This document shows, one piece after another, positions 7,845-11,257 of a DNA stretch of 32,000 nt. The notes beneath the pieces were generated by a model that was given only the letters and a program-made list of their open reading frames with translations, ran no database searches and was not told the origin of the DNA. This stretch comes from Candidatus Heimdallarchaeota archaeon (GTDB taxonomy: Archaea > Asgardarchaeota > Heimdallarchaeia > Heimdallarchaeales > Kariarchaeaceae). How positions within the stretch are numbered: the first letter of the stretch is position 1; each line of letters opens with the position of its first letter. A program made the position numbers and the translations under genes. The stretch lies in NCBI GenBank assembly GCA_030149205.1, contig JASBSB010000008.1, positions 1 through 32,000 on the forward strand, in the 5' to 3' direction.

Positions 7845-9152
7845 TTAATTACGCTTCATTACAACAATAAATTCGTTTAACATTGTAGGATTTGTTTTAC
7901 CTTTTACATTTGTTGGACTATTTCGTGAAGGCATAGTTTTATTTGGTATATCTCGTACATAGATTCCTTCGAGATCATATCCAAAATTTGAGAGCATCTC
8001 AACAGTTATTTTATCAGTTTCGATCCAAATTCCTTTCACAGTTCTATTACCCACAACGTAACAAATAGTTGAATTTTCATTTAATATTTTTTCTAAGCTT
8101 AAAAACACCTCATAATACCCCTGAAAAAACCTATTTACTTCAAGTGCTCTTTTTTCATCCTTTTGGGATATACTTTCCAAAGTTGAATCTAATGTATCAG
8201 ACAAATATTTTAAATTTATTTTTTTATGATTTGTTCTTGATCCACCCAACAACCTCGAATCCAATTGATTTGCAGGTTTTGTCCCCAACTCTAAAAGTTC
8301 GTTAGCAAACTGTGAAAATTGTCCATATGCAACTGTGGTTTTTGAATCTCCATAAGGTGGAGAGGTTAGAACTCCATCAACCTCTTTATTTTCAAGAAAA
8401 TCTAAGCTTCGAGCATCAGCATGATAAACTTCTGAATGTTTTGTGTTACTAGGTATTTCATCCACGAAATTCTTTAACCCAGAAATATTTCTCCTTATCT
8501 TACTATTAAATAGTCCTAAAACATCAGGATTCCAATCCTCGATTTTTTGCTTTTCCATTCTATATCTTTTAAATTCAGAATTTCTGGTAAAGGAGACTTC
8601 TCTAATTGTTTCGGATAAACAAACTAAAAAAAACTCTTTATGGGATTCTTCACTGATGTCTTTGTAAATCAATTTTTTTAGTAGGATTAATTTTTTTAAT
8701 ACATCACTTGAGAACCAAACATTAGGATTTGTTAAATTTAATTCATCTATAGAATTTATCGTATAAGATTGTAACTTTTTTTTGAAATTAATAATCAATT
8801 TGTTATGTAAAACGGTTAAGTCCTTAATTTTAATGGGAGTAGTTTTCACTCTGCTGATTAGTACGGCCAGGGGATTCAAGTCAACTCCAATACTGTTTTT
8901 ACCCATAAGCATAGATTCTACTAAAACAGAGCCACTTCCTACAAACGGGTCTAAGACCATTTTTTTGTCAACTAGCCAATTTGAAAGACAATATTTAGCA
9001 ACAGGTCCAATCATCATTGCTGGGTACCTATGAAATTCATGTGTGGCATATTTAGTTTCTGTCTTTCTAAAATCTAATTCATAAATTCTTTTACGAATTA
9101 AATTTGGAAATCTGGATATTGTTGATTCTGGATCAGATATTACTTTACCCAA
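7845..9152 (-). CDS. Type II DNA methyltransferase, N4-cytosine type (M.MvaI-like)
   Basis: HRYPAMM, DPFVGSGS (motif I), GVDLNPLA and TSPPYGDSKTTVAYGQFS (motif IV, SPPY). Order is motif I, TRD, motif IV. Directly downstream of the endonuclease. TTG start. Confidence 0.88.
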   Translation of the reverse strand: MGKVISDPESTISRFPNLIRKRIYELDFRKTETKYATHEFHRYPAMMIGPVAKYCLSNWLVDKKMVLDPFVGSGSVLVESMLMGKNSIGVDLNPLAVLISRVKTTPIKIKDLTVLHNKLIINFKKKLQSYTINSIDELNLTNPNVWFSSDVLKKLILLKKLIYKDISEESHKEFFLVCLSETIREVSFTRNSEFKRYRMEKQKIEDWNPDVLGLFNSKIRRNISGLKNFVDEIPSNTKHSEVYHADARSLDFLENKEVDGVLTSPPYGDSKTTVAYGQFSQFANELLELGTKPANQLDSRLLGGSRTNHKKINLKYLSDTLDSTLESISQKDEKRALEVNRFFQGYYEVFLSLEKILNENSTICYVVGNRTVKGIWIETDKITVEMLSNFGYDLEGIYVRDIPNKTMPSRNSPTNVKGKTNPTMLNEFIVVMKRN

Positions 9153-9189: not shown

Positions 9190-10020
9190 TTAAAAGTAAT
9201 CATCAAGAGTCTTGTTTGAAATTGAATCATTTTGACTGTTTTGATTGAAACTCTCATCCTCAGTAAATCCAAGCTTATTAGGTTCAAAATTTGTGTATAA
9301 TTCAGTGAGTTTTGTAGGCGGGATTCTAAACCCTGAACCATGATCATGCGGTTTCCCTCTTTTTGACCCTGATTTATATGTTCCAATCCTAATATCATAC
9401 ATAATTATTCCCTGTTCAATTAAATTTAAGAATTTTTCCCACTTTACATCACTAAAGAGAGAGTAATCGTAAAATTTGAAATACTCAACTCCATCTATTT
9501 TTTTCGATTTTACATTAACAAAGACTAAATATTGTAATTTACTGAAAAGCTTAGATTTTAGGTCAGAAAAGGTATAAAATATATCTGTCTCTTCAATTTG
9601 ATCATTTTCCAAATTCTTAACCACAAGCTTAATTTGATTTTTTTTGTTGTCAATTTTGATTTTCATCCCCCAAAGTCCATAACAATTAGTAAATCTATTT
9701 GCAAATATACTGACATGTAATTTTTTTATTTCTGGGTTGCTCTCAGTAGAGATTCCAAATTTATCTCTTAATAACCGATTTGCTCCAGATGGTTCTGACG
9801 GAGATTTAGTAAACAAAGTTAATAAAGATTGGGCAGAGTCACGTTGACTCTTAATTTCAATGTTTTTAAAATCTGGTTGACTAAGATTATTCTCTTGGAT
9901 TTCCATCAAATCTTCAAGAGTCTTCCCTACTCCAGTATTATGCCTTCTATTTGATTTGACCCAACCTAAATTCACAATTTTTCTAAATAACAGATCAAAT
10001 TCCTCGATTTCATTCCCCAT
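9190..10020 (-). CDS. MvaI/BcnI-family restriction endonuclease with C-terminal PIP-box-like extension
   Basis: GVGKTLEDLMEIQENN..PD...IEIKSQR (PD-(D/E)xK), LTLFTKSP and HDHGSGFRI are typical of the MvaI/BcnI family. Start likely ATG 10020 (ORF track TTG 10044). Confidence 0.85.
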   Translation of the reverse strand: MGNEIEEFDLLFRKIVNLGWVKSNRRHNTGVGKTLEDLMEIQENNLSQPDFKNIEIKSQRDSAQSLLTLFTKSPSEPSGANRLLRDKFGISTESNPEIKKLHVSIFANRFTNCYGLWGMKIKIDNKKNQIKLVVKNLENDQIEETDIFYTFSDLKSKLFSKLQYLVFVNVKSKKIDGVEYFKFYDYSLFSDVKWEKFLNLIEQGIIMYDIRIGTYKSGSKRGKPHDHGSGFRIPPTKLTELYTNFEPNKLGFTEDESFNQNSQNDSISNKTLDDYF

Positions 10021-10132
10021 AAATTTGCAAATACTTTTTATCAAAACAGGTTATTAAGTTTTTCCGGTTAGAATTGTGCTAAAAATCATATTCTGATAAG
10101 AAAAGATAAGACATATTTGAAAATATTTCAAT

Positions 10133-11257
10133 GTGGTTTTTTCAACCCCTACAGAGGAAGAAACTGGACAACAGAAGGAACTCCACTACATCCTTCATGT
10201 TGATTTAGACATGTTCTTTGCTGCTGTAGAAATAAAGTTTAACCCTTCGCTTGTTGGAAAACCACTCATTGTCGGAAACCCTCGAGCCAGGGAAAGTGGT
10301 AAGGGTGTCGTTCTAACCTGCTCCTATGAAGCCAGAAAATTTGGGGTTAGGTCTGGAATGTCCATGTTTGAAGCCCTCAAAAGATGTCCGGAAGCAGAGA
10401 TTTCAAACTCAGCTCGTAACGAATACAGGCCAACCTCAAAAAGAATAATGAGTTTATTGAAATCTTATGGAGTCCGAATCAGAATTTCAAGTGTAGATGA
10501 AGCTTACATGGATTTAACCCCACGAGTCAATTCATTTGAGGATGCCAGAAAATTTGCTAAAGAACTGCAATCCATGGTTTTTGAAAGAGAGGGACTAACC
10601 TGTTCAGTTGGGGTAGGTCCAACCTTAAAAATTGCAAAGATAGCATCTGATTACAACAAACCAAACGGAATTACAATTGTAACGCTTGATGACCTCCCCA
10701 GTTTTTTTGCAGGATTAGAACTACGAAAAATACCAGGAATAGGAAAAGCGACTGCAGAAAGACTTGAACTAAAAGGGCTAAAATATTGTGATGATTTAAT
10801 AAATCTATCAGAATCTGAACTTATCGGGTTAGTTGGAAAGTTTGGGAGGCATCTTTTTAGGTTGTTTAGAGGCGAGACACTGAACTACATCCCAGATCGA
10901 CAACCAAGAAAATCTGTGAGTCACGAAAGTACATTCTACGCTTCACCGGGTGATCATGAACGTTTTTTTCAAATTTTTAATAAGCTGTTTGATCAGACTT
11001 GGGAGATCTTAGAAAGAGAAAATTGGAAGACAAAAACTGTAAATGTTAAAATTAGATTCAGAGGCTTTAAAACATTAACGCGCTCAGAATCTTTGGAATA
11101 TTTCACAAACAACAAACAGCTCCTCTACAAGTTAGCTCTAGGTCTAGTGTTACCCTTTTTTAATGATGAAAGGGGTTTGAGACTAATTGGTGTTGGTTTT
11201 TCAAATCTAAGACAAAGAGAGAGACAACAACATTCACTGTTAGAGTTTATCTCATAA
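10133..11257 (+). CDS. dinB: Y-family DNA polymerase IV (DinB/Dbh)
   Basis: LHVDLDMFFAAVE, CSYEARKFGVRSGM, SVDEAYMD, AKIASDYNKPNG, IPGIGK and RKSVSHESTF. Ends in QHSLLEFI. Confidence 0.96.
   Translation: MVFSTPTEEETGQQKELHYILHVDLDMFFAAVEIKFNPSLVGKPLIVGNPRARESGKGVVLTCSYEARKFGVRSGMSMFEALKRCPEAEISNSARNEYRPTSKRIMSLLKSYGVRIRISSVDEAYMDLTPRVNSFEDARKFAKELQSMVFEREGLTCSVGVGPTLKIAKIASDYNKPNGITIVTLDDLPSFFAGLELRKIPGIGKATAERLELKGLKYCDDLINLSESELIGLVGKFGRHLFRLFRGETLNYIPDRQPRKSVSHESTFYASPGDHERFFQIFNKLFDQTWEILERENWKTKTVNVKIRFRGFKTLTRSESLEYFTNNKQLLYKLALGLVLPFFNDERGLRLIGVGFSNLRQRERQQHSLLEFIS

What the first reader, a model, noticed from the sequence alone, without database searches (positions are those of the whole stretch)
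9190..9290. Restriction-type nuclease with a C-terminal PCNA-clamp (PIP-box-like) tail
Seen: after the family-typical end (HDHGSGFRI...LY), the MvaI/BcnI-family nuclease continues for ~30 polar, low-complexity residues (EDESFNQNSQNDSIS) and ends in NKTLDDYF* (9193-9216). This fits the archaeal PIP consensus Q-x-x-L-x-x-[FY]-F with N for Q. Established: terminal (Q)xTLxxFF-type motifs on flexible tails tether archaeal Fen1, RFC-L and ligase to PCNA, and MvaI/BcnI are monomeric enzymes structurally related to the mismatch-repair nickase MutH. Inference: this may be a clamp-tethered, replication-coupled nuclease, e.g. MutH-like methylation-directed strand nicking with its cognate N4C methyltransferase, or fork-coupled defence, rather than an ordinary free REase.
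Basis: partly seen in the sequence, partly recalled or inferred. Interest (0 to 1): 0.78.

Follow-up and report, generated by a model that had tools for sequence, protein, structure and literature searches.

The report
Restriction enzyme with PCNA-docking tail
An archaeal copy of the well-known restriction enzyme MvaI has gained a floppy tail whose last eight residues closely match the peptide this organism's replication proteins use to dock on the sliding clamp PCNA, so DNA restriction here is probably clamp-coupled; binding itself is untested.

Summary
Window 9190-10020 (minus strand) encodes a 276-aa MvaI/BcnI-family nuclease with an intact D50/E55/K57 active site. A DNA methyltransferase gene follows it.

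Its last 27 residues (9193-9273) have no counterpart in about 480 homologues, which end 23-25 residues after the HDHG motif. AlphaFold2 predicts this tail as disordered.

The terminal NKTLDDYF is not a loose match. A weight matrix built from 14 C-terminal PIP boxes of this genome (FEN1, PolB, PolD, RFC-L, NreA, DinB and others) scores it 13.9 bits, next after those 14. About 0.02 chance hits are expected per proteome.

Replacing Q at position 1 has precedent. This genome's RNase HII ends STSLDNFF, and another Asgard genome's ends NKKINDFF.

A separate clade of five MvaI homologues, one from a 5.2-Mb genome of the same phylum, also carries 33-39-residue tails. Their linkers diverge (18% identity), but the terminal QKKITDF-type motif is kept (61%).

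A MutH-like mismatch-repair role is unlikely:
- MutL here carries endonuclease motifs.
- The cassette is a low-GC insertion absent from congeners.
- CCWGG is strongly avoided genome-wide.

PCNA binding is not shown. I found no paper on a Type II restriction enzyme with a PIP tail. This scan earlier noted a similar tail on a restriction methylase in another Asgard genome.

The parts
9190..10020 (-). Gene for a 276-aa MvaI/BcnI-family Type II restriction endonuclease (ATG at 10020; an alternative TTG lies at 10044; stop at 9190-9192)
   Evidence: Pfam PF15515 E 1.2e-58. PDB R.MvaI E 7e-51. AF2 model mean pLDDT 89; Foldseek top hit is the MvaI-DNA complex 2oaa, TM 0.90, rmsd 2.2.
9850..9873 (-). 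Catalytic PD...(D/E)XK motif: D50 (9871-9873), E55 (9856-9858), K57 (9850-9852)
   Evidence: These columns are invariant in the 27-sequence family alignment A1 (D48/E53/K55 in the 274-aa numbering used there). The sequence was read.
9217..9273 (-). Polar, acidic, low-complexity linker (residues 250-268) with no counterpart in any homologue
   Evidence: Homologues end about here. AF2 pLDDT is below 50 for residues 251-265 of the 274-aa query.
9193..9216 (-). Terminal PIP-box-like octapeptide NKTLDDYF (residues 269-276), the proposed PCNA-docking motif
   Evidence: It scores 13.9 bits on the PWM built from this genome's 14 Q-type C-terminal PIPs, rank 15 of 2,786 C-termini, with about 0.024 chance hits expected. 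AF2 places a short helix at residues 270-273 (274-aa numbering), which is L-D-D-Y.
7845..9152 (-). Cognate DNA methyltransferase (435 aa, TTG start), 37 bp downstream on the same strand. It has an SPPY motif IV and no PIP-like end.
   Evidence: Pfam N6_N4_Mtase E 4.5e-14. A homologous methyltransferase follows the tailed nuclease in L123. The N4-cytosine assignment is inferred from SPPY and from M.MvaI (PMC3001055).
11228..11254 (+). Context only: canonical C-terminal PIP box QHSLLEFIS of the divergently transcribed DinB/Dpo4 polymerase (gene 10133-11257)
   Evidence: Pfam IMS/IMS_C. The same-genus orthologue ends QLSLTDFLEPLM. It is one of the 14 sequences used to train the PWM.

Best explanation
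This is a catalytically intact, MvaI-type monomeric Type IIP restriction endonuclease, probably cutting CC/WGG. It sits in a horizontally acquired R-then-M cassette in an Asgard archaeon.

The enzyme has gained a 27-residue disordered C-terminal tail. Its last eight residues, NKTLDDYF, act as a PIP box: L, Y and F insert into the hydrophobic pocket of PCNA beneath the interdomain connector loop, as in FEN1, RFC-L or NucS. The nuclease would therefore ride on the sliding clamp.

Inferred consequence: restriction is coupled to clamp-loaded DNA. The clamp would deliver the enzyme to, and hold it on, replicating or primer-template-bearing DNA, including incoming viral or plasmid DNA that uses host PCNA. 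It could also help a single-active-site monomer stay on the DNA between its two sequential strand cuts.

Shown here:
- family membership, active site and fold;
- uniqueness and predicted disorder of the tail;
- a statistical match to this genome's own PIP set;
- conservation of a like motif in a second clade.

Inferred: binding to PCNA and what the coupling achieves.
For: 1. Family, fold and catalytic residues are established.
2. The tail is absent from about 480 homologues.
3. This genome has one PCNA and at least 14 proteins ending in Qxx[LI]xx[FYW][FLI]. They include FEN1, PolB, PolD-DP2, RFC-L, NreA, a Hel308-like helicase and DinB.
4. A PWM built from those 14 ranks the nuclease's end next after them at 13.9 bits. 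Positions 2-8 alone score 15.9 bits, which none of 914,783 internal windows reaches.
5. Q at position 1 is dispensable in true clients. This genome's RNase HII ends STSLDNFF and G083's ends NKKINDFF. In 77 experimentally confirmed PCNA motifs, 34% lack Q (PMC6881253).
6. L123 and P0272-P0275 are MvaI homologues 55-67% identical to each other. L123 comes from a genome of the same phylum. All have 33-39-residue tails with linker identity of 18% and terminal-motif identity of 61%: QKKITGF, QKKITDF (twice), QKKLKDF and QIEITKY. The L123 genome's own clients end QVSLDDFL and QKTLDNFL.
7. AF2 gives the tail pLDDT below 50, with a helical turn over LDDY.
8. CCWGG is the second most avoided pentamer pair in the genome (O/E 0.73) while CCSGG is not (0.94). 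This fits a long-active CCWGG restriction pressure.
Against: - Position 1 is N, whereas all 14 top-scoring PIPs of this genome have Q.
- The flank is strongly acidic (net about -5). For human PCNA this is said to disfavour binding (PMC6881253), although PolD, the Hel308-like helicase and RFC-L of this genome also have acidic flanks.
- No homologue closer than 52% identity exists, so conservation of this particular tail cannot be tested.
- Most archaeal and Asgard family members lack any tail.
- The tree places the window protein apart from the tailed clade, but an AU test does not reject joining them (p 0.31). Independent origin is therefore not shown.
- Loosely PIP-like ends also occur in two long-branch members that group with bacteria, P0258 and P0260.
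- The PWM training set was chosen by a Q-anchored pattern, so it is not fully independent of the hypothesis.
Confidence: 0.65

Rival explanations
1. The tail is a neutral accident. An example would be a lost stop codon after horizontal transfer, with the resemblance of its end to a PIP box coincidental. The enzyme would then work as an ordinary free Type II restriction endonuclease.
For: - The tail is a singleton with no close homologue to show selection.
- N replaces the otherwise invariant Q of this genome's best PIPs.
- Most archaeal relatives do without a tail.
- PIP-like ends occur in probable bacterial members P0258 and P0260.
Against: - About 0.024 chance hits are expected per proteome at this score at the exact C-terminus.
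- None of 51,516 out-of-frame C-termini reaches the score, so read-through into non-coding frames rarely gives such a motif.
- Only 28 of 200,000 shuffles of the tail reach it.
- The architecture (DNA enzyme, disordered linker, motif at the very end) is that of true clients.
- A second clade conserves such a motif over a diverged linker.
Confidence: 0.17
2. It is a MutH-like, PCNA-positioned nickase. Behind the fork it would nick the unmethylated nascent strand at hemimethylated CCWGG sites, giving mismatch repair or another repair pathway its strand signal.
For: - MvaI, BcnI and MutH share a fold, and MvaI cuts by sequential nicking (PMC3001055).
- Foldseek finds MutH, though weakly (2aor, E 1e-2).
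- The genome has MutS with an internal QGSLVDFF, plus MutL.
Against: - MutL here has the endonuclease motifs DVHASDERVKFE and CAHGRP, so it is the MutH-independent type (the motif definitions are from my own knowledge).
- The R-M cassette lies on another contig from mutSL.
- The cassette has 30-31% GC against 38% in its flanks.
- It is absent from the same site in a congener and from 2 of 3 congeners altogether.
- Its nearest tail-less relative sits in a bacterial mobile element.
- CCWGG avoidance points to double-strand restriction pressure.
Confidence: 0.08
3. The terminal motif is functional but serves something other than PCNA tethering. It might be a docking site for another partner, such as the cognate methyltransferase or a 9-1-1-like clamp. 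It might instead be a PIP-degron-like or auto-inhibitory element that limits the enzyme's activity after transfer into a new host.
For: - The motif is clearly non-random.
- PCNA-type motifs can overlap other short linear motifs (PMC6881253).
- The acidic flank is atypical for strong PCNA binders in eukaryotes.
Against: - Every annotated protein of this genome with a comparable C-terminal motif is a DNA replication or repair factor of the kind known to bind PCNA.
- No second clamp-like gene was found with PCNA_N.
- Nothing in the data points to a specific alternative partner.
Confidence: 0.08

Closest known systems
R.MvaI (PDB 2oa9/2oaa) and R.BcnI: monomeric Type IIP restriction endonucleases, Pfam PF15515
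   Same: - The sequence is about 38% identical to MvaI over 245 aligned positions.
- The fold matches (TM 0.90).
- The D50/E55/K57 active site and the HDHGxxFR recognition element are present.
- A methyltransferase gene is adjacent.
   Different: MvaI ends 8 residues after the aligned core. This protein continues for 27 further disordered residues ending in a PIP-like motif. No clamp interaction has been reported for MvaI or BcnI; I found none in the searched literature.
EndoMS/NucS: archaeal and actinobacterial mismatch endonuclease with a restriction-enzyme-like PD-(D/E)XK domain and a C-terminal PIP or clamp-binding motif (PMC4929162, PMC8228993)
   Same: It has the same design principle. 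A restriction-type nuclease domain is tethered to the sliding clamp by a short motif at the extreme C-terminus on a segment not seen in crystal structures.
   Different: - The family is unrelated; there is no NucS Pfam hit.
- NucS is a dimer that recognises mismatches rather than a sequence.
- NucS has no partner methyltransferase and is not part of a mobile R-M cassette.
Canonical archaeal PIP-box clients (FEN1, RFC-L, PolB, PolD DP2, RNase HII, NreA, DinB)
   Same: The motif sits at the extreme C-terminus after a flexible linker. Residues 2-8 (KTLDDYF) match this genome's own consensus as well as FEN1's or RFC-L's do.
   Different: Position 1 is N instead of Q. The carrier is a defence enzyme of bacterial origin rather than a core replication or repair factor.
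MutH (E. coli methyl-directed mismatch-repair nickase)
   Same: It is a distant structural relative of MvaI/BcnI, and it is also a monomeric, methylation-sensitive nuclease.
   Different: - There is no sequence-family match.
- The structural match is only marginal (Foldseek E 1e-2, TM 0.34-0.41).
- MutH is recruited by MutL, not by a clamp motif.
- This genome's MutL is of the endonuclease type.
Eukaryotic DNMT1 (PIP-box-bearing maintenance methyltransferase), and the earlier scan note on a Prometheoarchaeum R-M methylase with a PIP-like tail (e1-2536540)
   Same: In both, a DNA-modification or restriction component is coupled to PCNA by a PIP motif.
   Different: There the methyltransferase carries the motif. 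Here the nuclease does, and its cognate methyltransferase has none.

Membership tests
MvaI/BcnI restriction endonuclease family (PF15515) | Match to the family profile above the curated threshold | tested here: met
   199.3 bits against a cut-off of 25, covering profile positions 4-227 of 227.
MvaI/BcnI restriction endonuclease family (PF15515) | PD-(D/E)XK catalytic residues (MvaI D50, E55, K57) | tested here: met
   D50/E55/K57 are present and lie in invariant columns of A1.
MvaI/BcnI restriction endonuclease family (PF15515) | MvaI-like three-dimensional fold | tested here: met
   AF2 mean pLDDT 89. Foldseek 2oaa_A E 4.7e-28, TM 0.82/0.90, rmsd 2.2 A.
MvaI/BcnI restriction endonuclease family (PF15515) | Cognate DNA methyltransferase adjacent (a Type II R-M pair) | tested here: met
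   An N6_N4_Mtase gene lies 37 bp downstream on the same strand.
MvaI/BcnI restriction endonuclease family (PF15515) | CC/WGG (MvaI) rather than CC/SGG (BcnI) specificity, acting as a monomer | tested here: inconclusive
   The protein is much closer to MvaI (E 7e-51) than to BcnI (E 2e-12). Genome CCWGG O/E is 0.73 against 0.94 for CCSGG. Specificity and oligomeric state need biochemistry.
PIP-box clients of archaeal PCNA | Hydrophobic residue at position 4 and aromatic residues at positions 7 and 8 (xxx[LIM]xx[FY][FY]) | tested here: met
   L272, Y275 and F276. Positions 2-8 score 15.9 bits on this genome's PIP matrix, equal to RFC-L.
PIP-box clients of archaeal PCNA | Glutamine at position 1 | tested here: not met
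   Position 1 is N269. This feature is not strictly defining, because RNase HII of this genome has S and that of G083 has N. In addition, 34% of confirmed motifs lack Q (PMC6881253).
PIP-box clients of archaeal PCNA | Motif lies on a disordered segment at a protein terminus | tested here: met
   It is at the exact C-terminus. AF2 pLDDT is 44-49 over the last three 10-residue blocks.
PIP-box clients of archaeal PCNA | Motif conserved among orthologues while the linker diverges | tested here: inconclusive
   There is no orthologue above 52% identity for the window protein. The criterion is met in the separate L123/P0272-P0275 clade, where linker identity is 18% and motif identity 61%.
PIP-box clients of archaeal PCNA | Physical, motif-dependent binding to PCNA | not testable with these tools
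   This needs pull-down, ITC or a co-structure with the PCNA encoded at L001:1486-2265.
MutH mismatch-repair nickase | Membership of the MutH sequence family and a close structural match | tested here: not met
   Pfam returns only MvaI_BcnI. Foldseek gives MutH 2aor at E 1.3e-2, TM 0.34/0.41.
MutH mismatch-repair nickase | Works with a MutL that lacks its own endonuclease site | tested here: not met
   The genome's MutL carries DVHASDERVKFE and CAHGRP. mutSL lies on another contig.
EndoMS/NucS | NucS N-terminal and RecB-like C-terminal domains | tested here: not met
   There is no NucS family hit in Pfam or NCBIfam. The resemblance is in design only.

The most novel reading that the evidence does not exclude
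Clamp-coupled restriction may be a recurrent archaeal adaptation of bacterial-type R-M systems. After transfer into Asgard archaea, restriction nucleases (here and in the QKKITDF clade) and some methyltransferases would acquire PIP tails. Examples of the latter are this genome's Dam-family enzyme ending QTSLDGIF and the Prometheoarchaeum case noted earlier. Self/non-self discrimination would then be carried out on PCNA at or behind replication forks. That would be a prokaryotic parallel to PCNA-coupled maintenance methylation in eukaryotes. It could also be a way for a single-site monomeric nuclease to complete double-strand cleavage without leaving the DNA.
Probability: 0.3. Interest if true: 0.85.

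Novelty: new variant of a known kind. Interest (0 to 1): 0.7.

Why it matters
Type II restriction enzymes are textbook free-diffusing enzymes. A clamp-tethered one would change how target search, timing relative to replication and protection of hemimethylated host DNA are thought to work in archaea.

It would add a defence enzyme to the PCNA interactome.

It also shows how a bacterial gene is fitted to an archaeal, eukaryote-like replication hub by adding one short linear motif.

The enzyme and PCNA are small, soluble-looking proteins, so the claim can be tested directly. MvaI's monomeric sequential-nicking mechanism gives a concrete kinetic prediction: faster second-strand cutting on clamp-loaded DNA.

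Tried and rejected
- **Complex prediction.** PCNA (alignment A2) with the last 40 residues gave 'no answer': score 0.29 and 0.20 against a mark of 0.32, and the controls were not run. This is no evidence either way.
- **AU test.** I asked whether the window protein and the tailed L123 clade can form one clade. This was not rejected (p 0.31), so independent gain of the tails cannot be claimed.
- **Donor for the tail.** I searched this genome with blastn-short and blastp-short and found nothing beyond chance.
- **Close homologues that would show tail conservation.** None exists above 52% identity among 5.8 billion proteins.
- **Same-class archaeal homologues.** Five were found at 29-36% identity, all without a tail.
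- **Phylum survey.** Of 24 genomes with a family member, only this one and G228 (which is G083, the L123 genome) have long PIP-like tails. G353 and G363 have short extensions that are not PIP-like.
- **P0258 and P0260.** They end RKITDYFSVLLF and DDNIDVYFEPFFI and looked like further cases. They are long branches grouping with bacterial sequences, so I treat them as possible chance matches.
- **P0157 and P0209.** P0157 ends NSNLLDFF and sits inside an archaeal clade. P0209 ends QESLDKWY and is of unknown origin. Both are suggestive but unverified.
- **Literature.** Searches for a restriction enzyme with a PIP or clamp-binding motif found only NucS/EndoMS and unrelated papers.
- **Promoter and terminator scan.** The bacterial-type scan was uninformative for an archaeon.
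- **Organism name.** It could not be obtained; records of the window's own genome are withheld. The 'Heimdall-group Asgard' label comes from earlier scan notes. My only own support is the shared phylum with L123's genome, whose relatives are labelled Lokiarchaeia.

Full report
**What is there.**
On the minus strand, window 9190-10020 encodes a 276-residue protein (ATG at 10020; an in-frame TTG at 10044 would add 8 residues) that ends ...NKTLDDYF-stop.
- It matches Pfam MvaI_BcnI over the whole profile (E 1.2e-58).
- It matches R.MvaI in the PDB at E 7e-51, far better than R.BcnI at 2e-12.
- The catalytic D50, E55 and K57 (9850-9873) lie in invariant columns of a 27-sequence family alignment.
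- An AlphaFold2 model (mean pLDDT 89) superposes on the MvaI-DNA complex 2oaa with TM 0.90 and rmsd 2.2 A. BcnI follows, and MutH appears only marginally.
- A 435-residue N6_N4-family methyltransferase starts 37 bp downstream on the same strand (7845-9152). It has an SPPY motif and no PIP-like end.

So this is an R-then-M Type II cassette.

**The tail is an add-on.**
In MvaI the alignment stops 8 residues before the C-terminus. Here 36 residues follow. I measured the distance from the conserved HDHG motif to the stop codon:

| Set | Residues after HDHG |
|---|---|
| This protein | 52 |
| 119 nearest database relatives | 23-30 |
| 75 complete relatives from GTDB species genomes | median 25 |
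| 148 cluster representatives | median 25 |

About 27 residues (9193-9273) are therefore extra. They are polar and acidic, and AlphaFold2 gives them pLDDT 44-49 with a single helical turn over L-D-D-Y. No other place in the genome resembles the tail at DNA or protein level.

**Is the ending more than chance?**
I tested it against the organism itself. The genome (3.3 Mb, 12 contigs, 35% GC) has one PCNA gene. Among 2,786 ORFs of at least 100 residues, 14 end in Qxx[LI]xx[FYW][FLI] within five residues of the C-terminus. Those with annotation are exactly the expected clamp clients:
- FEN1, PolB, PolD DP2, RFC large subunit, NreA, a Hel308-like helicase and the neighbouring DinB;
- a RadB-like protein and a zf-PARP protein.

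A weight matrix from these 14 scores NKTLDDYF at 13.9 bits. That is rank 15 of all C-termini, directly after the 14 training sequences and within their leave-one-out range of 8.7-21.6.
- Only 8 of 914,783 internal windows reach this score, so about 0.024 chance hits are expected at exact C-termini per proteome.
- Positions 2-8 alone score 15.9 bits, equal to RFC-L, and no internal window reaches that.

Other null tests agree:

| Null | Windows or shuffles reaching the score |
|---|---|
| Windows near C-termini | 1 of 91,938 |
| C-termini of spurious reading frames | 0 of 51,516 |
| Shuffles of the tail's own residues | 28 of 200,000 |

**The asparagine at position 1.**
The one deviation is N for Q. 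The next-ranked C-termini show that this organism tolerates other residues there:
- RNase HII, a core PCNA client, ends STSLDNFF.
- A DUF72 protein ends EKTLEDFF.
- A Dam-family methyltransferase ends QTSLDGIF.

In a second genome of the phylum (G083), RNase HII ends NKKINDFF. [quoted passage not shown] The same paper argues that acidic flanks weaken binding to human PCNA. The flank here is acidic, but so are those of PolD, the Hel308-like helicase and RFC-L in this genome.

**Related sequences.**
No relative closer than 52% identity exists, so conservation of this tail cannot be tested directly.
- Five family members in the same taxonomic class (29-36% identity) have no tail.
- In 400 genomes of the phylum, 24 carry the family. 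Only this genome and G228 have long tails.

G228 is the same genome as G083. It is a 5.2-Mb 'uncultured archaeon', and its locus is L123. Its enzyme has 63 residues after HDHG, ends ...SSQKKITGFKNF, and is followed by a homologue of the window's methyltransferase.

Searching with it revealed four more proteins, 55-67% identical, one from the Loki's Castle sediment metagenome. All have 33-39-residue tails. When aligned, the tails have unrelated linkers but keep the terminal motif: QKKITGF, QKKITDF (twice), QKKLKDF and QIEITKY.

| Region | Pairwise identity |
|---|---|
| Adjacent core | 66% |
| Linker | 18% |
| Terminal motif | 61% |

This is the signature of a short linear motif under selection. 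G083's own FEN1 and NreA end QVSLDDFL(KNS) and QKTLDNFL.

In a family tree the tailed clade lies inside a well-supported group (99) whose other members lack tails and include a Lokiarchaeia-labelled protein. The window protein sits elsewhere, with tail-less P0002-P0008. However, an AU test does not reject uniting the tailed proteins (p 0.31). Convergent gain is therefore likely but not shown.

Two further representatives, P0157 (NSNLLDFF, inside an archaeal clade) and P0209 (QESLDKWY), may be additional cases. Two others, P0258 and P0260, group with bacteria and warn that loose look-alikes do occur.

**Origin.**
- The cassette has 30-31% GC against 38% for the flanking leuB and dinB.
- In a same-genus genome, the interval between dinB and leuB holds a dihydrolipoamide dehydrogenase and a small ORF instead. 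Two other congeners are rearranged there.
- The nearest tail-less relative, P0003, lies in a contig with LexA, a UmuC-like polymerase and a resolvase, which is a bacterial mobile element.

The simplest history is transfer of a bacterial-type R-M cassette into this archaeal lineage, with the PIP tail gained in an archaeal host. This is an inference.

**Mechanism and rivals.**
Best reading, about 0.65: an active CC/WGG restriction enzyme docked on PCNA through its tail.

CCWGG is the second most under-represented pentamer pair in the genome (O/E 0.73, after GGWCC at 0.57), while CCSGG is not under-represented (0.94). This fits long-term restriction at CCWGG.

What tethering achieves is inferred. 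It could be delivery to clamp-loaded, replicating foreign DNA. It could also be retention of a single-active-site monomer between its two sequential nicks, since MvaI and BcnI cut this way (PMC3001055, PMC3203586).

The MutH-like repair reading (about 0.08) is weakened on three counts:
- This genome's MutL carries the endonuclease motifs.
- mutSL is on another contig.
- The cassette is a recent, patchy insertion.

A neutral accidental tail (about 0.17) is hard to square with the statistics and the second clade. It cannot be excluded for a singleton picked out of a very large scan. A different partner or a regulatory role for the motif (about 0.08) has no specific support.

**Known or new.**
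The closest known design is NucS/EndoMS, a restriction-fold nuclease with a C-terminal PIP (PMC4929162, PMC8228993). It is an unrelated, mismatch-specific repair enzyme.

Full-text searches found no report of a Type II restriction enzyme with a PIP or clamp-binding motif.

Earlier notes of this scan describe the following:
- a PIP-like tail on an R-M methyltransferase in Prometheoarchaeum (e1-2536540);
- in this same genome, a PIP-tailed DUF2797 protein beside mutSL (e1-5423322, e1-5423323) and a PIP in MutS (e1-5423324). I re-observed the mutS and mutL genes and the DUF2797 and MutS motifs.

I rate this as a new variant of a known kind. It is well supported as an observation, plausible as a mechanism, and unproven for binding.

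Noticed in passing
L018:1-951 (G000 contig C4:459449-460399, minus strand): A Dam-family N6-adenine DNA methyltransferase (TIGR00571, E 4e-37) ends KQTSLDGIF. This is a Q-type PIP-like C-terminus scoring 13.2 bits on the genome's PIP matrix. One of nine class relatives (L199) ends RKLTDFI; the rest have no such end.
   Followed up: partly
L020:1-729 (G000 C2:132537-133265, minus strand): RNase HII of this genome ends STSLDNFF, a PIP box with S in place of Q. The RNase HII of G083 (L145) ends NKKINDFF.
   Followed up: partly
L019:1-798 (G000 C4:405835-406632): A DUF72 (YecE-like) protein ends EKTLEDFF at its exact C-terminus. It is a PIP-like tail on a family of unknown function.
   Followed up: no
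L009, L010, L013 (G000 C4:35703-36236, C4:146020-146376, C8:323003-323992): Three proteins without any Pfam family (177, 118 and 329 aa) carry high-scoring canonical C-terminal PIP boxes: QDSLDEYF, QKSITDFF and QQALDEFF. They are candidate unknown PCNA clients.
   Followed up: no
L002, L004, L008 (G000 C1:14136-15065, C2:159520-160590, C4:506423-507232): A zf-PARP protein, a metallo-beta-lactamase-fold protein and a RadB/Rad51-like protein also end in PIP boxes: QTFISDYF, QKSILDYL and QLTLIDFFD.
   Followed up: no
L152:4828-7966: A metagenomic contig carries two MvaI_BcnI genes flanking one N6_N4 methyltransferase. One of them (P0157, 252 aa) ends NSNLLDFF; the other (248 aa) has no extension.
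   Followed up: partly
whole genome G000: GGWCC is the most under-represented pentamer pair in the genome (O/E 0.57), more so than CCWGG (0.73). This suggests a second, AvaII/SinI-type restriction pressure.
   Followed up: no
L003 and L011 (G000 C2:211973-215215; C8:177952-181980): The Hel308-like helicase and the PolD DP2 subunit both contain intein-splicing domains (Pfam PF14890).
   Followed up: no
L207:1187-7898: The nearest tail-less relative of the window's nuclease (P0003, 52% identity) lies in a bacterial-looking mobile element. A divergent methyltransferase, a resolvase, and a LexA plus UmuC-like pair accompany it.
   Followed up: partly
L154/L155 (G000 C4:287540-292070): A bacterial-type MutS has an internal QGSLVDFF at residue 844. 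MutL carries DVHASDERVKFE and CAHGRP motifs. Both lie next to the PIP-tailed DUF2797 gene, as earlier scan notes also report.
   Followed up: partly
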